Shown here one piece after another: positions 2,574 to 19,787 of a DNA stretch of 43,453 bases. The stretch is from an uncultured Acetobacteraceae bacterium. GTDB lineage: Bacteria > Pseudomonadota > Alphaproteobacteria > Acetobacterales > Acetobacteraceae. Position 1 is the first letter of the stretch; each line of letters begins with the position of its first letter. The stretch spans positions 1-43,453 of the forward strand of contig CAXSER010000001.1 in NCBI GenBank assembly GCA_964236315.1, read 5' to 3'. A model generated the notes under the pieces. The model saw only the letters and a program-made list of their open reading frames with translations. It ran no database searches and was not told where the DNA came from. The translations under genes were made by a program, and so were the position numbers.

Positions 2574-4361
2574 CTAGGGCAGGGTCGTGTCGAACTGCAG
2601 GGCGGCGAGCCGGGCGTAGAGGCCGCCCTGCCGCACCAGGTCGTCGTGCGTCCCCGTGGCCACGATGCGCCCTGCGTCCATCACCACGATTCGGTCCGCC
2701 CTGCGCACCGTTGCGAGCCGGTGGGCGATCACCAGCGTGGTGCGCGACGCGAGCCTGGCCAGGGCGTGCTGCACGGCGGCCTCGCTCTCGGCATCGAGCG
2801 CGCTGGTGGCTTCGTCGAGCAGCAGGACCGGGGCGTCGCGCAGGATGGCGCGCGCGATCGCCAAGCGCTGCCGCTGCCCGCCGGACAGCCGCACGCCGCG
2901 TTCGCCCAGGAAGGTGTCGTAGCCCTGCGGCAGTGCGTCGAGGAACCCGCACGAGGCCACGGCCGCCGCGTCACGCACCTCGGCGTCCGTGGCGTCTGGC
3001 CGGCCGAGGCGCAGGTTGGTCCAGACGTCGGCGCCGAACACCACCGGCTCCTGCGCCACCAGGCCGAGGCGGGCGCGCACTGCCGAGGGGTCCGCGTCGC
3101 GCAGGTCGATGCCGTCGAGGCGGATCGTGCCGGCCGTGGGGTCGTGGAAGCGCAGCAGGAGCTGGAACACCGTCGTCTTCCCCGCACCGGACGGGCCGAC
3201 CAGGGCCACCGTCTCGCCGGGCGTCACCGACAGGGAGAAGTCGCGCAATGCCGGCTGTCCGGCGCGCGCGGGGTAGGCGAAGTCGACGGCCTCGAAGGCG
3301 ATGCTGCCCTTTGGCGGGGTCGGCAGCGCGCATGGCAGGGCCGGGATGGTGATCGTGGGGCGCACCGACAGCAGCTCGGCGAGGCGGTCGGCGGCGCCGG
3401 CCGCACGCTGCAGCTCGCCCCACAGCTCGCTCAGGCCGGCGCCGGAGGTCGCGACGATCACGGCGTAGAACACGAACGCGGAGAGCGCGCCCGCGGTCAT
3501 CCTGCCGGCGAGCACCTCGCGGCCGCCAACCCACAGCGACAGGGTGATCGCCCCGAAGCCGAGTAGAATCACGCCGCCGATCACCAGTGCCCGCGAGCGG
3601 ATGCGCGAGCGGGCGGCGGCCACCGCGTGCTCCGTGGCCTGGCCGAAACGCGCGCGGGCCTGCGGCTCGTGGGTGAAGGCCTGCACGGTGCGCAACGCGG
3701 AGACAGTCTCCTCGGCCAGCGCCGCGAGGTCGGCCACGCGCTCCTGCGCCACGCGGGACAGGGCGCGCTCGCGCCGCGAGAACAGCACCAGCGGCACCAC
3801 CACGAACGGCACCACCGCCAGGACCACCAGCGACAGCGCCGGGCTGGTGGCGACCAGCATCGCGAACGCGCCGACCAGCAGCACCGCGCTGCGCAGCCAC
3901 TGGCTCAGCGCCGAGCCGGCGAGCGCCTGCAGCACCGCCGTGTCGGCGACCAGGCGCGACAGCACGTCGCCGGTGCGCGCGGTCTCGAACCAGGCGGGGG
4001 AGAGCGTGGTGACGTGGTCGAACACGGCGCGGCGCAGGTCGGCGCCGACGCGCTCGCCCAGCCAGGAGACAAGGGCGAAGCGGCACGACGTCGCGACGGC
4101 AAGCCCGGCGATCACGGCCGTCACGCCGAGCGCGGTGGCGTCGAGGCGGGCCTGGCTTCCGGTGGCGAGGCCGCCGTCGACCAGGCGGCGCACCGCCTGG
4201 CCCAGCAGCAGCACGAGCCCGGACGCGGCGAGCAGGCAGAGGGCGGCGGCCAGTCCCTGCCAGATGTAGCGCCGCAGGAACGGCAGCAGCAGGCCTAGGG
4301 CAGAGGGAGAGCGGCCGATCATCTGCCGCGGGTTCAGCAAACGCGGGGTGATGGCCGGCAT
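2574..4361 (-). CDS. ABC exporter, fused permease/ATPase (ABCB type, MsbA/Atm1-like)
   Basis: N-terminal transmembrane domain of about 300 aa. Walker A 'GPSGAGKTT', signature 'LSGGQRQR', Walker B 'LLLDEATSALD'. Confidence 0.85.
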   Translation of the reverse strand: MPAITPRLLNPRQMIGRSPSALGLLLPFLRRYIWQGLAAALCLLAASGLVLLLGQAVRRLVDGGLATGSQARLDATALGVTAVIAGLAVATSCRFALVSWLGERVGADLRRAVFDHVTTLSPAWFETARTGDVLSRLVADTAVLQALAGSALSQWLRSAVLLVGAFAMLVATSPALSLVVLAVVPFVVVPLVLFSRRERALSRVAQERVADLAALAEETVSALRTVQAFTHEPQARARFGQATEHAVAAARSRIRSRALVIGGVILLGFGAITLSLWVGGREVLAGRMTAGALSAFVFYAVIVATSGAGLSELWGELQRAAGAADRLAELLSVRPTITIPALPCALPTPPKGSIAFEAVDFAYPARAGQPALRDFSLSVTPGETVALVGPSGAGKTTVFQLLLRFHDPTAGTIRLDGIDLRDADPSAVRARLGLVAQEPVVFGADVWTNLRLGRPDATDAEVRDAAAVASCGFLDALPQGYDTFLGERGVRLSGGQRQRLAIARAILRDAPVLLLDEATSALDAESEAAVQHALARLASRTTLVIAHRLATVRRADRIVVMDAGRIVATGTHDDLVRQGGLYARLAALQFDTTLP

Positions 4362-4587: not shown

Positions 4588-5793
4588 CTAGCTCGACGAC
4601 TGGACCGCCGCGGCAAGGGCGGCGAGTTTCGCCGCGGGATGAGCCGGGTTGCGGAAGCGCAGTTCCCCGTCGCCGGCACCGTCGGGCTTGCCGATGCCGA
4701 ACAGCTCGACTCGGGAACTGCACGTGACCGCCACGACCGGGCGGGCCTCGCGGTTGGTGAGGAACTGGCGGGCCTCGCCCTCCAGGTCGAGGCGATCGCG
4801 CAGCAGCCGCCACTCGTTGCGGTCCGTGTCCTCGATGAACATGGCGAGGATGCCAGGGCGGGTGCCGGTCAGCCGGGCCGGAGCGACGGCGGCCATGCGG
4901 CGACGCAGGGCGACGGCGATCTCGTTCTCGCGTCCGGCGCGGGCGGCCATCACGAACACCGCGTTGCCGGCAGACGTCACGGACAGGTGCGCCTCGGGGC
5001 CGAATTCCTGGCGCAGGTGCGAGGCGAGGCCGCGCTCCTCGGCCTGCGCGGCCGCCAGCAGGAGCGGGTCGAGACGAAGCACCGCAGCCTCGTCCTGGTC
5101 GGCGCGGCGGTGCTCGGTCAGCAGGGTGCTGATGCGCTGGTGCAGCGAGGCGAGGCTGGTGTCGTCCGGGCTGCAGGCGCTCTTGAGGCCCTGGGGCAGC
5201 GTCATCTTGAGCAGGTAGCGACCGGGGTGGGCGGCGAGCCAGGTCTGCAGCTCCGGGTCGACACGGTCGACGAGGTTGAACCAGGCGCCGCGGTGCACGT
5301 CCCGTCCTTCCTCGGCGGACATGACGTCGCAGGCGATCTCCGCCTCGACGCCGTCTCGCTCGATCAGCAGGTCGAACACGTCGCCCTGCTCGATGCCGGA
5401 AAAGCTCACCTGGAAGCCGCGTGCGCGCTGGAGAGCTGCGGTGCGCATGACGTGGAAGAAGGGCACCAGGGTCTGGCCACTCTGCATGGCGCCGGCCAGC
5501 GTGTCGGCGAGGCGCTGCTTGGCCTCCACGGGAATGCGACGCGACAGGGCCACCGTGTCCGCCACCAGGATGGCGATCCCGCGTTCCGCCTGAGTCGGGA
5601 CGGCCTCCCGGCACCGGCGCAGGCGCTCGATCATCAGCTCGATGGCGTGCCGCTGCAGGAGCGCGCGGCCCGACCAGCCGGCCGCGGGCATGCCGCCCAG
5701 GCTCGCGAGACGCGCTTTCCAGCGTTCTCCGCCGACCAGCGCGACGAAGGCGTTGAGCGTCGAGAGAGGCGGTCGTGCGATTGCGCTGGACAT
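4588..5793 (-). CDS. Hypothetical protein (no domain recognised)
   Basis: Long ORF with GC3-rich codon usage and a realistic amino-acid composition, unlike the overlapping Arg/Pro-rich and Gly/Ala/Val-rich shadow frames. Start taken at the ATG at 5793; an alternative start is 5853. Follows aroC on the same strand. Confidence 0.65.
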   Translation of the reverse strand: MSSAIARPPLSTLNAFVALVGGERWKARLASLGGMPAAGWSGRALLQRHAIELMIERLRRCREAVPTQAERGIAILVADTVALSRRIPVEAKQRLADTLAGAMQSGQTLVPFFHVMRTAALQRARGFQVSFSGIEQGDVFDLLIERDGVEAEIACDVMSAEEGRDVHRGAWFNLVDRVDPELQTWLAAHPGRYLLKMTLPQGLKSACSPDDTSLASLHQRISTLLTEHRRADQDEAAVLRLDPLLLAAAQAEERGLASHLRQEFGPEAHLSVTSAGNAVFVMAARAGRENEIAVALRRRMAAVAPARLTGTRPGILAMFIEDTDRNEWRLLRDRLDLEGEARQFLTNREARPVVAVTCSSRVELFGIGKPDGAGDGELRFRNPAHPAAKLAALAAAVQSSS

Positions 5794-5882
5794 TGCATCA
5801 TCAATGTAATGGATCCGGACGAAGTCACCATCACACCGGCGTGACATCCGCATTTGTGGCCGCCGACGCGGATACCGCCCGG

Positions 5883-14648: not shown

Positions 14649-14926
14649 CCGGCTCCGCGGGTGATGGCCGGCGGGCCCTGGCTGCGTGCGGCGCAGCGAT
14701 CGCGGCCGGCATCCGTGCTGTCGTGCGTTTGGTGCCAGGCCGAACAAGGACAGGTCGGCAGCGTGGCTGCTTGCCCAAACATGGCACCAGACGTTATCCA
14801 CTTCGTTAGTAAGACTGACGTGCTCGTTCCGACATGCGACGCGTTGTGGACGCAAATCATCCGCGCCGAACCACCCCATGCGGATTGCCTGCGGGCGTGG
14901 CGCGCGATCTGTCCGGGGGATCAACC

Positions 14927-17900
14927 ATGCCGACCATTCAACAGCTGCCCGCCGCGGTCCAGCCGAGCGCGGATGACGAGCTGCCGGTGAGCCAGGGCGG
15001 CGTGACCCGGGCCGTCTCGGTGGGCGAGCTGCTCGCGGCGACGCAGGCCGCGATCACAACCGCGAGCAACACACTGCTGGGCCGTGTCTCGCTGGGGCCT
15101 GGCGGTCCGGAGCCGGTGCCGATGGGGCCGGGGGTGGCGATCAGCAGCGGGGCGCTGAGCGCGAACGGAGGCGACCACGCCGGGTTCGTGCAGCGCGCCG
15201 TGCTGACGCTGAGCGATGAGATCGTGCTGAACAGCTCGGGCACGCCGTCACGCATGCCCCTGCCGATGCTGCGCGGCCTGTTCGCCGCCGGCACGAACGT
15301 CAGCATCGACGGGTCGGGCATGATCTCCGCCACGACCGACCCGGCCATCGTCGCGACCCTGGGCACGGTGGGCGCGCAGGCGACGGCGGCACAGAGCGCG
15401 TCCGGTTCGGCGACGGCCGCGGCAGGAACGCTGGCTGCCACGGTGTCCACGCTGGGCAGCCAGGTCGGGACCCTCGCAGGCACGGTGGCGCCGCTGGGCG
15501 GGCAGATCGGCACGCTGTCGGCGACGGTGTCCTCCGTCGGGATCACGGTCGCGGGGCAGACGGCGCAGCTCGGCACGCTGAGCGCCGGGGTGTCGGCGGC
15601 TGGCAGCTTGGCGGCGGCGGCGTCGAGTGCCGCGACCTCGGCAGGCAGCTCCGTGTCCACGCTGGGCAGCACGGTGGGGACGCTGTCGAGCGTGGTGGCG
15701 CCGCTGAGCGGGCAGATCGGCACGCTGTCGGCGACGGTGTCCTCGGTCGGGAGCACGGTCGCCGGGCAGGCGGCGCAGCTCGGCACGCTGAGCGCCGGGG
15801 TGTCGGCGGCTGGCAGCTTGGCGGCGGCGGCGTCGAGTGCCGCGACCTCGGCAGGCAGCTCCGTGTCCACGCTGGGCAGCACGGTGGGGACGCTGTCGAG
15901 CGTGGTGGCGCCGCTGAGCGGGCAGATCGGCACGCTGTCGGCGACGGTGTCCTCGGTCGGGAGCACGGTGGCGGCGCAGTCGGCGCAGCTGGGGACGCTC
16001 GGCACGAACGTGTCCGCGGCGGGCAGCCTGGCGGTGGCGGCATCGAGTGCGGCGGCGTCGGCGGGCAGCTCCGTGTCCACGCTGGGCAGCCAGGTGGGGA
16101 CGCTGTCGAGCGCGGTGGCGAGCGGCGTCATCGCGGCGTCGAGCACGTCGGGCTCGACGACCACGCTGACCAACGCATCGGGCGGGACGATCGTGACGAT
16201 CGTGGCGCCGGCCGGGCCGCCGGGGACGCTGGGCAACGGTTCGGTGCGGGCGAACACGGCCTCCGGGGTCATGGGCGGACCGGAGCGTACGCTGCAGGCG
16301 ATCCACAGCGACCGCCTGCGGCTGAGAATGTTCGGGGCGCAGCAGAACGGCACCACGGCGCAGGGGCTGCTCGGCGTCACGACACGCGCGCAGCTGGCGG
16401 CGTGGACGAACTCGGCAGGGGGGAAGCCCTACGCCTTTGCTGCGACGCAGCCGTTCACCATGGGCGACGACTACTGGGTCAGGCTGCCGGCGTCGGTGGC
16501 GTCAGGGTCTACGGTGAACCTTGCGATCACGCTGACGCTGGGCTCGGCGGTGTACCAGGGGCAGGACGGCCACTGGTACCTGCCGGCGCCGAACGCGTCC
16601 TCGACCTACTACGACGACATGGTGGTGACCGGGGGCAACCTGGCGTCGGGCACGAAGGTGGTGGCGACCCAGGGTGCGACGATCCGCATCACCGACCAGC
16701 CGGCGGGGACGCAGGTGCCCTCGGGCACCGTGCTGACGATCGGCGCGGACATGAGCCGCGTGAAGGTCGGGCAGCAGGTCTGGGCGACCAAGGGGCTGGC
16801 GCCGCTGTCCACGATCACGCAGGTGTCGGGCACCACGGTCACGCTGAGCGCGGCGCTGGCCTCGGGCGGGCTGTTCACGCTGCAGACGCTCAACATCTAC
16901 ACGCCGATGGCAGAGAACACGCTGACGAACAGCGTGACGATGGACCTGCTGGCGTTCTGCGCGGCGTACTACGCGGCGCCGTATGGCGGGTCCGTGGAGT
17001 GCGACCCGGGCGGCTACATCTTCAGCCCGCACGCCATCCTGGGAGGCGGCAACGTCAAGTTCCTCGGCGCGGGGCGGCACTGCTGCACCATCAGCGGCAC
17101 CGACAATGCGCCGCTGATCAAGATGTTCCCGCAGGCGGGCGCGGAGACCGGCATGACCGGGCTGAACTTCGGCAACTACAACGGGCTGATGCAGAGCTTC
17201 GTCGAGATCGACGGCGGCGGTTTCGGCGCGGTGGCACCCAACGGCGCCGGGTGCGGGGCCGTGCTCGACGACATCTCGGGCAACTGCAGCCCCGGCCCGA
17301 TCGGAGCCTACGAGCTGATCCGGCTGCGCAACCTGGGCAACGTCAGGTTCGACAACATCGACTTCATCGGGCTGGGCAAGACCACCGTGGGCACGTGCAC
17401 GCTCAACATCGGCAGCGTCATCCTGATGATCTCGCGCAACATCACCTCGCACTACTGCTGGAGGGCGGCGATCCAGCAGGGCTACATCGAGGACCCGATC
17501 TGCGAGCACTGGGCCCAGGACCAGTGCGGCGGCGCCTGGGACGCCAGCCGGGCCAACGTGTTCAACGGCCTGTGCGGGCTGCTGTTCAAGTGGGTCGGCG
17601 GCGACAACGACATCACCGACTTCATCCTCAACCTGCCGTCGTTCCTCAACGTCAACATCTCCGACGCCTGCGTGATCTTCAACGGGCAGAACGGCGGCGC
17701 CTGCTACATCCTGGCCGGGTGCCAGACCGGGGTGATCTCCGGGGTGCAGGGCGGCACGGCGGCGCCGGGGGTGGTGGACTGCATCCACCTGACCAGCGCC
17801 ATGGTCGACGGGGGCTACTACCCGACCACGCAGATCCTGGTGACCGGAGTTGCGGTCAGCGGGTTCGACTGCGCGGTGCGCATCGACAAGGGGTGCAGCG

Positions 17901-18025
17901 GCAACGACGTCACCGCGACGCTGTGGAGCAGCGGGGCGGGCAGCACCAACGGCATCTCGCCCACCCCGGTGATCGACAGCGACGGGCGCAACCGGATCAA
18001 CGGCGTGATGGGAACGGCCCACTGA
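14927..18025 (+). CDS. Large phage tail-fibre/tailspike-like protein: N-terminal anchor-like region, repeat-built coiled-coil stalk, Cys-rich C-terminal half (possibly beta-helical)
   Basis: GGGGGA lies 7 nt before the ATG at 14927. The N-terminus 'MPTIQQLPAAVQPSADDELPVSQGGVTRAVSVGELLAAT' carries no signal peptide. Residues ~176-400 are 70-aa repeats with a clean heptad a/d pattern. The C-terminal ~450 aa is Gly/Asn/Cys-rich with about 20 Cys. Two strong hairpins follow the stop. Confidence 0.7.
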   Translation: MPTIQQLPAAVQPSADDELPVSQGGVTRAVSVGELLAATQAAITTASNTLLGRVSLGPGGPEPVPMGPGVAISSGALSANGGDHAGFVQRAVLTLSDEIVLNSSGTPSRMPLPMLRGLFAAGTNVSIDGSGMISATTDPAIVATLGTVGAQATAAQSASGSATAAAGTLAATVSTLGSQVGTLAGTVAPLGGQIGTLSATVSSVGITVAGQTAQLGTLSAGVSAAGSLAAAASSAATSAGSSVSTLGSTVGTLSSVVAPLSGQIGTLSATVSSVGSTVAGQAAQLGTLSAGVSAAGSLAAAASSAATSAGSSVSTLGSTVGTLSSVVAPLSGQIGTLSATVSSVGSTVAAQSAQLGTLGTNVSAAGSLAVAASSAAASAGSSVSTLGSQVGTLSSAVASGVIAASSTSGSTTTLTNASGGTIVTIVAPAGPPGTLGNGSVRANTASGVMGGPERTLQAIHSDRLRLRMFGAQQNGTTAQGLLGVTTRAQLAAWTNSAGGKPYAFAATQPFTMGDDYWVRLPASVASGSTVNLAITLTLGSAVYQGQDGHWYLPAPNASSTYYDDMVVTGGNLASGTKVVATQGATIRITDQPAGTQVPSGTVLTIGADMSRVKVGQQVWATKGLAPLSTITQVSGTTVTLSAALASGGLFTLQTLNIYTPMAENTLTNSVTMDLLAFCAAYYAAPYGGSVECDPGGYIFSPHAILGGGNVKFLGAGRHCCTISGTDNAPLIKMFPQAGAETGMTGLNFGNYNGLMQSFVEIDGGGFGAVAPNGAGCGAVLDDISGNCSPGPIGAYELIRLRNLGNVRFDNIDFIGLGKTTVGTCTLNIGSVILMISRNITSHYCWRAAIQQGYIEDPICEHWAQDQCGGAWDASRANVFNGLCGLLFKWVGGDNDITDFILNLPSFLNVNISDACVIFNGQNGGACYILAGCQTGVISGVQGGTAAPGVVDCIHLTSAMVDGGYYPTTQILVTGVAVSGFDCAVRIDKGCSGNDVTATLWSSGAGSTNGISPTPVIDSDGRNRINGVMGTAH
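15452..16126 (+). repeat. In-frame tandem repeat, 210-bp unit x ~3.2 copies, inside the tail-fibre-like CDS
   Basis: Units start at 15452, 15662, 15872 and 16082. By eye, 15562-15759 is essentially identical to 15772-15969. Each unit encodes 70 aa, which is 10 heptads. Confidence 0.9.
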
Positions 18026-18028
18026 GCG

Positions 18029-18055
18029 GTCCGTCGGCGTGAGTCGCCGACGGAC
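18029..18055 (+). terminator. Stem-loop (11-bp perfect GC-rich stem) directly after the tail-fibre-like gene
   Basis: GTCCGTCGGCG-tgagt-CGCCGACGGAC begins 4 nt after the stop. No U-tract follows. Confidence 0.5.
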
Positions 18056-18063
18056 AACGTGCT

Positions 18064-18095
18064 CCCGGGCAGGGACAAATCGGTCCCTGCCCGGG
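18064..18095 (+). terminator. Second stem-loop (13-bp perfect stem)
   Basis: CCCGGGCAGGGAC-aaatcg-GTCCCTGCCCGGG. Tandem to the first hairpin. Confidence 0.5.
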
Positions 18096-18386
18096 GATGA
18101 CGGCGAAGAGCTTCGGTCAGGAAGGGTGGGCCATGCCCAGGCCCATGCCCGGGCTCGCGTAGGGTCTCGAGGCCCTCTGTTTCGCGATCAGGCCAGGATC
18201 TCCTGAGGCTGGCCCTGTGTGGAGGCCGAGGGCAGAGCCCCTGCCCCACCTCGCGCCTCCGTCCTGGGCGCGGTGATGCTTTGCAGGGCACAGGCGCGAT
18301 GTCCATCGCGCCGCGGATCGATGGTCTGGGGCGGGAGGCGTGCAACCTGCTTGCCTTGCGCTGGTCGGGACAGTACCCCTGGTCGA

Positions 18387-19787
18387 ATGCAAGGGTGCGA
18401 GACGGACGTCGGGGCTCCCGACGCGGAGCTGACCGACGCGATACGCCGCCTGTCCCGCGCCAGCGTCATGGTGGTGGGCGACGTCATGCTCGACCGCTAT
18501 GTCTATGGCAGCGTGTCACGGATCAGCAAGGAAGCGCCCACCCCGGTGCTGGCGGTGAAACGCGAGCTGGCGATGGCGGGCGGCGCGGGCAACGTGGTGC
18601 GCAACCTGACCGGGCTGGGAGCGGCCGTGGCGTTCGTCTCCGTGGTGGGCGACGACCAGGCGGGGTCGGACCTGACTGGGCTGATCGGCGGGCAGCCCAA
18701 CGTCGAGCCATGGCTGCTGGTGCAGGGGTCGCGCTGCACCACGCAGAAGACGCGCTACATGGCGCGCGGCCAGCAGCTGCTCCGCTCGGATCGCGAGGAC
18801 GCCTCGCCGGTGCACCCGAAGCTGGTGGAGCGGATGCTGCGCATCACGGGCGACGCGATGGCCGCGACGTCGGTCAGCGTGCTGTCGGACTATGGCAAGG
18901 GCGTGCTGGCGGGGGGCATCGCCAGCTCGATCATCGCCGCCGCCAGGCAGGCAGGACGGCCGGTGGTGGTCGATCCGCAGGGTTCGGAGTACGAGCGCTA
19001 CGAGGGTGCCGATCTGGTGTGCCCGACCCTTGACGAGCTGGCCGAGGTGATGGGCGAGCCGGTGCTGACGGAGGCCGCCTGCGAGGCGGCCGCGTCGCGT
19101 CTGCGCACGAAGTACGGGCTCGGGGCTGTCGCGGTGAACCGGGCGTCGCGCGGCCTGACCCTGGTGGACGGCGACGGCGTGCTGCACCTGCCCTCGCACG
19201 CGGCGGAGGCCTTCGAGGCGGCGGCGGCGAACGACACCCTGGTGGCGGCGATGGCGGCAGGGCTTGCGATCGGCCTGCCGCTCAGGGTCGCGGCGAGGGT
19301 GGCGAACCTGGCAGCCGGCGTCGTGCTGGCGCAGGCCGGGCTCGCGGTGGCGCAGGAGGCCGACCTGCTCGCGGCTTTGGCGCCACAGGGCGTGGTGCCG
19401 AAGAAGGTGGTCTCGCCCCAGCTCGCCACGGAGCAGGTCGAGCGCTGGCGGCGCATGGGATGGCGCACCGGCTTCGCGCCCGGTTCCGACACCGGCGGGC
19501 TTGATGCCCGTCGCGGCGGCGACATGCGGCTGATGGAGCAGGCACGGACGGCGTGCGACCGGCTGATCGTGGGGCTGTTTCATGATCCGGCACGTGACGG
19601 CGATGTCCCGCCCGCGGCCGTGGCGCTTGCCGGCCTGCGCGAGGTCGATCTGGTGTGCCTGTACCCGGCGCACTCCGCGGACGACACGCTGCGGGCATTG
19701 CGGCCGGAGCTTCTTGTCGAGCGCGAGCCGAGCCCCGCTGCCGCGATGCTGAGAAGCTGGGGCGGCGAGATCCTGGTCGTCGAGTAG
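18387..19787 (+). CDS. hldE: HldE/RfaE-like bifunctional heptose kinase/adenylyltransferase homologue, with divergent catalytic motifs
   Basis: The N-terminus 'VMVVGDVMLDRYVYGSVSRISKEAPTPVL…GGAGNVVRNL' is unmistakably HldE domain I. The C-terminal domain keeps 'DRLIVG…' but lacks HxGH. Start at the ATG at 18387 is tentative. Confidence 0.75.
   Translation: MQGCETDVGAPDAELTDAIRRLSRASVMVVGDVMLDRYVYGSVSRISKEAPTPVLAVKRELAMAGGAGNVVRNLTGLGAAVAFVSVVGDDQAGSDLTGLIGGQPNVEPWLLVQGSRCTTQKTRYMARGQQLLRSDREDASPVHPKLVERMLRITGDAMAATSVSVLSDYGKGVLAGGIASSIIAAARQAGRPVVVDPQGSEYERYEGADLVCPTLDELAEVMGEPVLTEAACEAAASRLRTKYGLGAVAVNRASRGLTLVDGDGVLHLPSHAAEAFEAAAANDTLVAAMAAGLAIGLPLRVAARVANLAAGVVLAQAGLAVAQEADLLAALAPQGVVPKKVVSPQLATEQVERWRRMGWRTGFAPGSDTGGLDARRGGDMRLMEQARTACDRLIVGLFHDPARDGDVPPAAVALAGLREVDLVCLYPAHSADDTLRALRPELLVEREPSPAAAMLRSWGGEILVVE

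What the first reader, a model, noticed from the sequence alone, without database searches (positions are those of the whole stretch)
14927..18025. Orphan phage tail-fibre/tailspike-like giant ORF embedded among housekeeping genes
A 1032-aa ORF sits alone between Trm112/DUF971 and an hldE-like gene. No integrase, tRNA, capsid, portal or terminase gene is visible anywhere in the window.

Its architecture reads like a phage or GTA receptor-binding fibre:
- A non-secretory N-terminus, 'MPTIQQLPAAV…DELPVSQGGVTRAVSVGELL'. From memory, similar openings occur on alphaproteobacterial phage fibre/tailspike proteins.
- A ~225-aa Ala/Ser/Gly/Thr/Leu/Val stalk with an unbroken heptad pattern.
- A ~580-aa C-terminal half rich in Gly/Asn, with about 20 cysteines (HCCTISG, HYCWRAA, PICEHWAQDQCGG, GGACYILAGCQTG, GFDCAVRIDKGCSG). 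That many cysteines is unusual for a cytoplasmic protein and suggests an extracellular, disulfide-stabilised domain. A beta-helical fold is only a guess.

The gene has its own lower-GC upstream region and two strong hairpins downstream, so it looks like a self-contained single-gene module. Candidate roles are a dispersed gene-transfer-agent or tailocin fibre locus, a domesticated phage receptor-binding protein, or a non-classically exported adhesin or polysaccharide depolymerase.
Basis: partly seen in the sequence, partly recalled or inferred. Interest (0 to 1): 0.72.

Follow-up and report, generated by a model that had tools for sequence, protein, structure and literature searches.

The report
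Stand-alone phage tailspike gene among housekeeping genes
A 1032-residue gene sitting alone among housekeeping genes of an uncultured Acetobacteraceae bacterium is a real, selectively maintained phage receptor-binding protein (baseplate anchor, coiled-coil stalk, sugar-cutting beta-helix), and its relatives otherwise sit at the end of contractile-tail prophage gene clusters.

Summary
ORF 14927-18025(+) encodes 1032 aa, with an unbroken heptad stalk built partly from 210-bp tandem repeats, 17 cysteines in the C-terminal third, and two strong downstream hairpins. The other window ORFs that were scanned, most of the 43-kb contig, are housekeeping genes.

The phage-fibre interpretation is supported by independent evidence.
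- **N-terminus:** residues 1-147 are 45-67% identical to the N-termini of fibres with unrelated C-termini (pectate-lyase, collagen plus FN3, phi29 head-fibre-like). In about 40 Acetobacteraceae genomes and 60 IMG/VR contigs these lie just downstream of a contractile-tail baseplate module. Portal, capsid and sheath genes lie upstream in the one contig walked.
- **C-terminus:** it folds with high confidence (pLDDT 88) as a right-handed beta-helix. It matches tailspikes and depolymerases and is profile-homologous to PF12708 fibres (hhalign 98%).
- **C-terminal relatives:** its few distant relatives also sit in fibre position, one directly after baseplate genes and two upstream of endolysin genes.

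The gene lies at the same DUF971/hldE locus in at least seven related contigs. Its dS resembles that of its neighbours. dN/dS is 0.05-0.18 in the anchor and 0.2-0.46 in the C-terminus.

Whether a partner particle exists in the same genome could not be tested. The disulfide idea is not supported. Verdict: a new member of a known kind in an unusual orphan setting; moderate interest.

The parts
14927..18025 (+). Complete orphan receptor-binding-protein (tailspike-type fibre) gene, 1032 aa plus stop
   Evidence: ORF. Start fixed by homologue N-termini. Orthologues are 73-90% identical at the same locus. dN/dS is below 0.5 in all domains.
14927..15367 (+). N-terminal conserved domain (aa 1-147), inferred baseplate-anchor/adaptor module
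   Evidence: 45-67% identical to the N-termini of fibres with unrelated C-termini. Those genes lie just downstream of GPD/V/gp25/Baseplate_J/UCP028438/Gly_rich_2/Gp77. It has the lowest dN/dS of the gene, 0.05-0.18. No Pfam, PHROG or PDB match.
15368..16135 (+). Ala/Ser/Gly/Thr-rich heptad stalk (aa ~148-403), probable trimeric coiled coil of variable length
   Evidence: Unbroken a/d heptad register. Weak sequence matches to reovirus sigma-1 and P22 gp26 coiled coils. Orthologue lengths range from 1032 to 1182 aa.
15443..16120 (+). 210-bp (70-aa, 10-heptad) tandem repeat, 3.2 copies, inside the stalk
   Evidence: Tandem Repeats Finder: period 210, 91% matches, score 1083.
16334..16912 (+). Beta-rich domain (aa 470-662) inserted ahead of the beta-helix cap helix
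   Evidence: AlphaFold model m476fed387ee5, block pLDDT 86-96. Conserved in all members of the C-terminal family.
16913..17896 (+). Right-handed parallel beta-helix (aa ~663-990), pectate-lyase-3-like. Candidate polysaccharide-binding/depolymerase domain with conserved Y853, E855, D893 (also D673; E663 and D961 at 90% or more)
   Evidence: hhalign against PF12708-bearing fibres gives probability 98.2%, E 3e-14. AF2 mean pLDDT 87.9. Foldseek PDB and BFVD matches are beta-helix CAZymes and phage tailspikes.
14770..14926 (+). Conserved upstream region: motif CTTGCCCAA (14770), near-palindrome GTTAGTAAGACTGAC (14805) and a conserved ~110-nt leader
   Evidence: Alignment of orthologous upstream regions. 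No sigma-70 consensus. Weak covariation, 3 compensated pairs. The function is inferred only.
18029..18101 (+). Two GC-rich hairpins just after the stop codon, a probable transcript end or stabiliser
   Evidence: RNA fold -58.5 kcal/mol, z = -6.7, 0 of 200 shuffles as stable. No T-tract. No Rfam family.

Best explanation
The gene encodes a functional, phage-derived receptor-binding protein of the tailspike-fibre type.

**Architecture**
- An N-terminal ~147-residue adaptor, homologous to the one that fibres of a myovirus-like prophage lineage of Acetobacteraceae carry at the position next to their baseplate genes.
- A long heptad stalk, probably a trimeric coiled coil, whose length changes by gain and loss of 70-residue repeats.
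- A C-terminal right-handed beta-helix, which probably binds and cleaves a surface polysaccharide.

**History and setting (shown)**
- The gene became separated from any tail gene cluster.
- It has been inherited vertically at the DUF971/hldE locus in a small clade.
- It is under purifying selection, strongest on the adaptor.

**Proposed mechanism (inferred, not shown)**
The protein has no export signal. It is probably made in the cytoplasm and loaded in trans, through its adaptor, onto baseplates of contractile-tail particles. These particles would be encoded elsewhere in the genome or brought by a related infecting phage. The added fibre would give those particles an additional or alternative surface-glycan specificity.
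For: **Anchor homology and context**
- 43 of 55 protein hits share only the first ~140-240 residues. Their C-termini are different: PF12708, beta-helix, collagen plus FN3, phi29 head-fibre-like.
- In the genome scan, 38 of 49 loci have the homologue 7-10 kb downstream of GPD/V/gp25/J/UCP028438/Gly_rich_2/Gp77, and several more have partial clusters cut by contig ends. The same holds for L003-L007.
- 60 IMG/VR contigs carry the domain. The one contig walked upstream has portal, major head and tail sheath genes.
- Clusters often carry two consecutive fibres with this N-terminus.

**C-terminal module**
- hhalign 98.2% to PF12708 fibres.
- AF2 pLDDT 87.9, pTM 0.88.
- Foldseek: 22 PDB hits and 69 BFVD hits at E<=1e-3. 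Those listed are almost all beta-helix depolymerases, epimerases or tailspikes.
- The distant relative P0012 sits in fibre position after Baseplate_J/UCP028438/Gly_rich_2. P0012 and P0011 both lie upstream of endolysin genes. One IMG/VR contig also carries the module.

**Function retained**
- dN/dS is 0.05-0.18 (anchor), 0.13-0.31 (stalk) and 0.19-0.46 (C-terminal half). dS is 0.22-0.6, against 0.35-1.0 for flanking Trx/Lon/DUF971/hldE.
- The gene keeps all invariant residues of the anchor family.
- Seven syntenic contigs were found.

**Precedent**
The RcGTA tail fibre and head spikes are encoded away from the structural cluster (PMC5026251, PMC10218006).
Against: - No tail or head gene lies on this 43-kb contig.
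- In the two GTDB species-representative MAGs that carry the orphan (L008, L009), the pattern scan found no second gene with this N-terminus. The MAGs may be incomplete and the two patterns do not cover every family member.
- No fibre in a tail cluster has an anchor more than 67% identical to the orphan's. A co-evolving partner in the same genome is therefore not visible.
- The conserved upstream motifs were not found next to the prophage clusters.
- Trimerisation, virion incorporation and enzymatic activity are all untested.
Confidence: 0.5

Rival explanations
1. Co-opted relic. The gene is the only survivor of a decayed prophage or of a translocation. It is now kept as a cell-autonomous polysaccharide lyase or hydrolase (for example remodelling capsule, EPS or LPS glycan), released by lysis or an unknown route, with no phage particle involved.
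For: - It sits alone with its own conserved upstream region and terminator-like hairpins.
- GC3 is host-like and dS resembles that of the neighbours.
- No partner cluster was detected in the L008 and L009 MAGs.
- It lies next to an hldE-like heptose-activation gene.
- The beta-helix most resembles CAZymes such as GH87 and AlgE epimerases as well as tailspikes.
Against: - The anchor domain is the most constrained part of the protein (dN/dS 0.05-0.18). That is not expected if docking to a baseplate no longer mattered.
- There is no signal peptide or secretion-system domain (sequence inspection).
- The long stalk is retained and still turns over by repeat gain and loss, as in fibres.
Confidence: 0.25
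2. Decoy or defence. The orphan fibre is incorporated into baseplates of incoming phages of this lineage. Progeny then carry the wrong specificity, which lowers phage spread (assembly poisoning or retargeting for the host's benefit).
For: The anchor is conserved and compatible with a widespread prophage lineage in the family. The gene is host-fixed and vertically inherited. There is no cognate cluster nearby.
Against: There is no direct evidence and, to my knowledge, no precedent. PADLOC was not searched. The C-terminal domain is itself under purifying selection, which a pure poison would not need.
Confidence: 0.07
3. Recently stranded, functionless fragment of a prophage that has not yet decayed.
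For: An IS630-like transposase lies upstream of hldE in one relative (L131). IS elements also separate a related fibre from its cluster (L057). This shows rearrangement around such genes.
Against: The reading frame is intact in more than 10 orthologues across dS ~0.2-0.6, with dN/dS well below 1 in every domain.
Confidence: 0.05
4. Ordinary cellular surface protein (S-layer, adhesin or autotransporter-like) that only resembles phage fibres by convergence.
For: There are no Pfam, PHROG or NCBIfam hits and no BLAST match in 50,697 phage genomes.
Against: Both terminal modules have homologues in fibre position of phage structural clusters. There is no signal peptide, barrel, RTX or SLH domain.
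Confidence: 0.02

Closest known systems
Phage tailspike/depolymerase proteins with a pectate-lyase-3-like beta-helix (Pfam PF12708/PF13229 class; e.g. phi29 gp12, Det7/Dettilon tailspikes, Klebsiella phage depolymerases)
   Same: Modular build: N-terminal particle adaptor, stalk, then right-handed beta-helix. It shows profile homology to PF12708 fibres and structural matches to these proteins. Acidic residues on the helix are conserved.
   Different: It does not reach any Pfam threshold. It carries an extra ~190-residue beta domain ahead of the helix cap. The C-terminal family is very rare, 15 clusters among 1.84 billion representatives. The gene is not in a phage genome or cluster.
Tail fibres of the myovirus-like prophage lineage of Acetobacteraceae found here (e.g. 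P0021/P0034/P0040 in L003-L007, Acidocella aquatica L035, A. aromatica L046)
   Same: The same N-terminal ~147-aa domain (45-67% identity), with all invariant residues kept.
   Different: Those genes follow Baseplate_J...Gp77 in a head-tail cluster. This one lies between DUF971 and hldE, with no phage gene on the 43-kb contig.
Multilocus gene transfer agent of Rhodobacter capsulatus (RcGTA: tail fibre rcc00171 and head spikes encoded away from the main cluster)
   Same: A receptor-binding protein of a phage-like particle is encoded at a separate chromosomal locus, is vertically inherited, and binds an extracellular polysaccharide (PMC5026251, PMC10218006).
   Different: RcGTA is siphovirus-like. 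The relatives here have sheath and baseplate genes. No sequence comparison with RcGTA proteins was run. Whether any particle is produced by this organism is unknown.
Side-tail-fibre genes in cryptic prophage remnants (e.g. E. coli stf/tfa remnants; from my own knowledge)
   Same: Fibre genes survive in chromosomes outside intact prophages and can be used by, or recombine with, related phages.
   Different: Those remnants usually sit within recognisable defective prophages and decay. Here a single gene sits in a housekeeping context, with purifying selection as strong as on its neighbours.

Membership tests
Phage tailspike / tail-fibre receptor-binding proteins (pectate-lyase-3-like beta-helix class) | C-terminal right-handed parallel beta-helix fold | tested here: met
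   AF2 pLDDT 87.9. Foldseek PDB and BFVD hits to beta-helix depolymerases and tailspikes. hhalign 98.2% to PF12708 fibres.
Phage tailspike / tail-fibre receptor-binding proteins (pectate-lyase-3-like beta-helix class) | Passes the curated Pfam model (PF12708 or PF13229) | tested here: not met
   No such hit even at E<=1. Only a remote relative, P0080, gives a sub-threshold PF12708 hit.
Phage tailspike / tail-fibre receptor-binding proteins (pectate-lyase-3-like beta-helix class) | N-terminal module shared with fibres encoded in tail gene clusters (particle adaptor) | tested here: met
   (sequence). (context).
Phage tailspike / tail-fibre receptor-binding proteins (pectate-lyase-3-like beta-helix class) | Gene located within a phage or prophage structural module | tested here: not met
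   Housekeeping neighbours in the window and in seven syntenic contigs.
Phage tailspike / tail-fibre receptor-binding proteins (pectate-lyase-3-like beta-helix class) | Homotrimer incorporated into virions; glycan binding or cleavage | not testable with these tools
   Only indirect evidence: heptad stalk and conserved Y853/E855/D893.
RcGTA-type gene transfer agent accessory locus | Sequence homology to RcGTA fibre or head-spike proteins | not tested
   No RcGTA sequences were compared. PHROG and Pfam gave nothing.
RcGTA-type gene transfer agent accessory locus | Associated particle is siphovirus-like, with the conserved RcGTA head-tail cluster | tested here: not met
   Related clusters encode a tail sheath, gp25-like protein and Baseplate_J, i.e. 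a contractile tail.
RcGTA-type gene transfer agent accessory locus | Structural cluster present elsewhere in the same genome | not testable with these tools
   Only this 43-kb contig is available. The pattern scan of the L008 and L009 MAGs found only the orphan.
R-type tailocin fibre | Partner cluster is a headless contractile tail | tested here: not met
   The one related cluster walked upstream carries portal and major head genes.
Secreted cellular beta-helix proteins (autotransporters, T1SS AlgE-type epimerases, S-layer proteins) | Signal peptide, autotransporter barrel, RTX or SLH modules | tested here: not met
   No such Pfam or NCBIfam domains. The N-terminus MPTIQQLPAAV... has no hydrophobic signal sequence.

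The most novel reading that the evidence does not exclude
The orphan fibre is a host-fixed, trans-acting specificity module for a contractile-tail, head-containing phage-like element that is widespread in Acetobacteraceae, often next to a conserved LexA-like S24 gene. This would be a myovirus-type analogue of the multilocus RcGTA arrangement, in which the host rather than the element owns a receptor-binding protein. Alternatively, the host uses it as a decoy that mis-targets progeny of infecting phages.
Probability: 0.2. Interest if true: 0.7.

Novelty: new member of a known kind. Interest (0 to 1): 0.45.

Why it matters
**What the work defines**
- A previously unannotated N-terminal adaptor domain. 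It has no Pfam, PHROG or PDB match, and it marks the tail fibres of a myovirus-like prophage lineage across Acetobacteraceae, including Acidocella, Acidisphaera and MAGs whose names suggest a lichen origin.
- A rare, diverged branch of the pectate-lyase-like tailspike fold.

**Why the orphan setting matters**
A single fibre gene has been inherited with its housekeeping neighbours, and its adaptor is as constrained as they are. If it is indeed loaded in trans onto particles, it would be a clean natural case of a host-encoded host-range determinant. That bears on how GTAs, tailocins and prophages are domesticated, and on engineering receptor-binding proteins by module swapping.

If the gene instead acts alone, it is an example of a phage depolymerase co-opted by its host.

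Tried and rejected
- **Family libraries:** Pfam, PHROG and NCBIfam scans of the whole protein gave only weak coiled-coil noise.
- **Cultured phages:** tblastn against 50,697 phage genomes found no match.
- **First AlphaFold run:** it used only close orthologues plus two distant sequences, with unaligned N-terminal rows. The model was unusable (pLDDT 51.5), and its Foldseek matches (TM about 0.1) were discarded. The second run, with a trimmed and more diverse alignment, succeeded.
- **Word-indexed homologue searches:** searches with the C-terminal piece and with its profile returned only orthologues. The exhaustive HMMER search was needed to find distant relatives.
- **Empty-site test:** this failed. 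The next relatives in metagenomes (hldE 58% identical or less) have no Trx-Lon-DUF971 synteny upstream, so no clean insertion boundary could be defined. L131 has an IS630-like element there instead.
- **Shared regulatory motif:** the orphan's conserved upstream motifs are not found next to prophage clusters.
- **RNA and signal scans:** Rfam found nothing and the promoter/terminator scan gave no consensus sites.
- **S24 gene:** the idea that the S24 gene next to the clusters is LexA itself was rejected (34 bits against a cut-off of 111).
- **Disulfide-stabilised domain:** rejected, because most cysteines are not conserved.
- **IMG/VR:** it holds no close relative of the C-terminal domain. One relative at 31% identity was found.
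Full report
**1. The observation**

The six-frame ORF list shows an ORF at 14834-18025(+). All homologues start with MPTI..., and nucleotide conservation among orthologous loci rises just upstream of the ATG at 14927.

- Residues ~145-403 keep one heptad register without a break. Positions a and d are 67% and 56% V/I/L, and the other positions are 12% or less.
- The stalk is 22% Ala, 21% Ser, 14% Gly and 13% Thr.
- Part of the stalk is a 210-bp (70-residue, ten-heptad) tandem repeat with 3.2 copies and 91% matches (15443-16120).
- There are 17 cysteines, all between residues 678 and 990.
- Two GC-rich hairpins follow the stop codon (-58.5 kcal/mol, z = -6.7). They have no T-tract.
- The window is an entire 43,453-bp contig.
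- The 29 other ORFs of at least 147 aa picked by GC3 and scanned are housekeeping genes or have no hit: FtsJ, chorismate synthase, FabI, a YkuD transpeptidase, Trx-TPR, Lon N-domain, DUF971, an hldE-like heptose kinase/adenylyltransferase, MmcB, UDG, LigT, an FtsX-type ABC system, AdoHcyase, AICARFT and others. Shorter ORFs and a few stretches were not scanned.
- No baseplate marker matches the window.
- The one ARAGORN call is a 101-nt 'tRNA-Thr' inside an ABC-transporter ORF and is probably false.

The gene's GC3 (0.94) is like that of its neighbours (0.88-0.98).

**2. Library searches**

Pfam, PHROGs and NCBIfam give only sub-threshold coiled-coil matches. tblastn finds nothing in 50,697 deposited phage genomes. 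PDB sequence search finds only weak similarity of the stalk to trimeric coiled coils (reovirus sigma-1, P22 gp26). By annotation alone the protein is an orphan.

**3. The N-terminal module**

The large protein search returned three classes of hit.
- Ten full-length orthologues, 73-90% identical.
- Two proteins about 30% identical over the stalk and C-terminus (P0011, P0012).
- 43 proteins that share only the first ~140-240 residues, at 45-67% identity.

An alignment shows a sharply bounded conserved domain, residues 1-147. It has 21 invariant positions, and similarity disappears after it. The partners' C-termini are unrelated to each other: PF12708 pectate-lyase-like, PF13229 beta-helix, collagen plus three FN3 domains, DUF5907 repeats, and phi29 head-fibre-like. 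A constant N-terminus joined to interchangeable C-termini is the pattern expected of a virion-attachment adaptor on receptor-binding proteins.

**4. Gene context of the N-terminal relatives**

- P0034, P0021 and P0040 (the last from Acidisphaera rubrifaciens) each lie directly downstream of this gene order: Phage_GPD-like, Phage_base_V, a gp25-like sheath initiator, Baseplate_J, UCP028438, Gly_rich_2, Gp77.
- A scan of 185,579 species-representative genomes found 49 loci, nearly all in Acetobacteraceae (Acidocella aquatica, A. aromatica and many MAGs).
- tblastn of marker proteins showed a full or nearly full baseplate set 7-10 kb upstream of the match in 38 of the 49. Several more are partial clusters cut by contig ends, and a few contigs are too short to judge.
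- Only L008 and L009, the orthologues, lie at the Trx-Lon-DUF971 locus.
- The gene just upstream in many clusters carries the same N-terminus, so clusters often encode two such fibres.
- IMG/VR holds 60 predicted viral contigs with the domain, at 63% identity or less.
- Walking upstream on one 33-kb contig shows portal, major head protein and tail sheath.

The partner element is therefore a head-containing contractile-tail (myovirus-type) prophage-like element. It is neither a headless tailocin nor an RcGTA-type siphovirus-like cluster. In several loci a conserved S24-family gene lies a few kb downstream. It is not canonical LexA (34 bits against a cut-off of 111).

**5. The C-terminal module**

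An exhaustive HMMER search of 1.84 billion representatives, using a profile of residues 470-1032, found only 15 clusters. The family is rare. Its distant members have other N-termini and collagen-like or CBM5/12 inserts, which again points to module shuffling.

- P0012 sits immediately after Baseplate_J/UCP028438/Gly_rich_2 and upstream of a phage lysozyme gene. P0011 lies upstream of a GH108 endolysin gene.
- One IMG/VR contig carries a relative at 31% identity.
- Profile-profile comparison of the family with the PF12708-bearing fibres of the tail clusters gives 98.2% probability and E 3e-14 over ~260 columns.
- A first AlphaFold run was unusable (pLDDT 51.5). With a trimmed, diverse alignment the model reached mean pLDDT 87.9 and pTM 0.88.
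- The model shows a ~190-residue beta domain, a cap helix, and a right-handed beta-helix from about residue 663 to 990.
- Foldseek gave 22 PDB matches at E<=1e-3. All are beta-helix carbohydrate-active proteins or tailspikes: GH87 glucanases, AlgE4/AlgE6 epimerases (TM up to 0.66 on the target), Dettilon gp208, Klebsiella phage P560 depolymerase, phi29 gp12, LKA1 gp49, Vibrio RbmB.
- Foldseek gave 69 BFVD matches at E<=1e-3. Those carrying a name are mostly 'pectate lyase superfamily protein' of uncultured caudoviruses and named tailspikes.
- Y853, E855 and D893 are invariant across the family. D673 is also invariant, and E663 and D961 are at least 90% conserved (numbering shifted by 469). They are candidate catalytic or substrate-binding residues. 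This is an inference.
- Only two cysteines are invariant across the five sequences, and no cysteine column reaches 90% conservation in the 12-sequence alignment. Some orthologues replace GRHCCT by SARSVY. The disulfide argument therefore does not hold.

**6. Evolutionary status of the orphan**

- The gene lies between DUF971 (GBBH-like_N) and the hldE-like gene in L001, L002, L008, L009, L129 and L130, and directly upstream of hldE in L132.
- Synonymous divergence of the fibre (0.22-0.6) is comparable to that of the flanking Trx, Lon-N, DUF971 and hldE genes (0.35-1.0). This is consistent with vertical co-inheritance.
- dN/dS is 0.05-0.18 for the adaptor, 0.13-0.31 for the stalk and 0.19-0.46 for the C-terminal half. 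The flanking genes are at 0.06-0.16.
- The gene is thus functional, and its most constrained part is the one that would dock to a baseplate.
- Orthologue lengths range from 1032 to 1182 aa. The differences lie mainly in the stalk, as expected for a tandem repeat, and L001 also carries a 10-residue insert in the C-terminal domain.
- Only two of the ~47 genomes carrying the adaptor have the orphan arrangement. In JGI and NCBI metagenomes only hldE relatives at 93% identity carry it.
- It is not a family-wide core gene. A clean empty site could not be found, because upstream synteny is lost in the next relatives (hldE 58% identical or less).
- Fibres detached from the baseplate module also occur elsewhere in this lineage. 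P0015 follows an S24 gene and a 76-aa gene with no baseplate genes within 6 kb. P0018 is separated from Gp77 by IS elements. These two have the adaptor closest to the orphan's (about 60-67%).

**7. Regulation**

The upstream 160 bp is conserved among orthologues. It contains CTTGCCCAA, a near-palindromic GTTAGTA-N-CTGAC, and a ~110-nt leader with a weakly supported fold (3 compensated pairs). No sigma-70 consensus is present. The motifs were not found beside the prophage clusters. How the gene is controlled is unknown.

**8. Mechanism: shown and inferred**

*Shown*
- Both terminal modules are homologous to modules of fibres encoded in myovirus-type structural clusters.
- The C-terminal domain has the beta-helix fold.
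- The stalk has a heptad repeat and a variable repeat number.
- The gene is in an orphan location, vertically inherited and under purifying selection.

*Inferred*
- The protein trimerises.
- Residues 1-147 dock to a baseplate.
- The beta-helix binds and probably cleaves a surface polysaccharide.
- The protein is supplied in trans to particles encoded elsewhere or by incoming related phages.

The last step is the weakest. I could not examine the rest of the genome. The pattern scan found no second adaptor-bearing gene in the two species-representative MAGs with the orphan. No cluster-borne fibre has an adaptor more than 67% identical to it.

The main rival is a co-opted, particle-independent depolymerase. 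The strong constraint on the adaptor argues against it. A decoy or defence role is possible but has no direct support.

**9. Comparison with known systems**

By fold and architecture it works like a phage tailspike or depolymerase. It fails the Pfam threshold and the 'located in a phage module' criterion, so it is best described as a diverged, stand-alone member of that kind. The closest functional analogy is the multilocus RcGTA 'genome', whose tail fibre and head spikes are encoded away from the structural cluster and bind capsule polysaccharide (PMC5026251, PMC10218006). The relatives here are contractile-tail elements, and no homology to RcGTA proteins was tested.

**10. Verdict**

It is a new member of a known kind, a phage receptor-binding protein, in an unusual and stably inherited orphan setting. 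It also yields a new adaptor domain that defines an Acetobacteraceae prophage lineage. Interest is moderate (0.45). It would rise to about 0.7 if the protein proves to be a host-owned, trans-acting host-range module or an anti-phage decoy.

Noticed in passing
L003-L007, L010-L056 (e.g. L004:1702-12268); IMG/VR L058-L117, L120: A conserved myovirus-like structural module recurs in many Acetobacteraceae genomes. Its gene order is portal, major head, sheath, then GPD-like, V, gp25-like, Baseplate_J, UCP028438, Gly_rich_2, Gp77, then one or two fibres. In several loci a highly conserved (77-86% identical) non-LexA S24-family gene lies a few kb downstream. Whether this is an active prophage lineage with a preferred integration site or a domesticated element was not resolved.
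   Followed up: partly
L128:4629-8294 and L057:9581-12088: The fibres with the adaptor closest to the orphan's (P0015, P0018) are also detached from baseplate genes. P0015 directly follows a divergent S24 gene and a 76-aa gene. P0018 is separated from Gp77 by about 9 kb of IS elements.
   Followed up: partly
window 14770-14926: The region upstream of the fibre gene is conserved among orthologues. It holds CTTGCCCAA, a near-palindrome GTTAGTA-N-CTGAC, and a ~110-nt leader with a possible stem structure (weak covariation). No sigma-70 consensus is present, and the motifs are not shared with prophage clusters.
   Followed up: partly
window 3742-3842 (-): ARAGORN calls a 101-nt tRNA-Thr(CGT) inside the ABC-transporter ORF 2574-4361(-). 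It is probably a false positive.
   Followed up: no
L131:152-1231 (-): In one close relative (hldE 93% identical), an IS630-like transposase lies about 640 bp upstream of the point where homology to the window resumes (window 18339). The contig ends there, so it is unclear whether the fibre gene is lost, displaced or just beyond the IS.
   Followed up: partly
P0008 vs window 16124-18025: P0008 (656 aa, a fragment from another assembly) is 99.5% identical over 631 aligned residues but continues 25 residues past the window protein's C-terminus. This suggests a stop-codon or frame difference at the 3' end in that assembly.
   Followed up: no
window 4588-5853 (-): A 421-aa ORF with host-like GC3 (0.88), between the ABC transporter and chorismate synthase, has no Pfam match. 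A 401-aa gene without Pfam hits sits at the same position in L001.
   Followed up: no
window 18026-18479: A 455-bp non-coding gap separates the fibre stop from the likely hldE start at 18480. It is 400-600 bp in orthologous loci. Beyond the two hairpins it has no Rfam match above threshold, and homology to L131 resumes only at 18339.
   Followed up: partly
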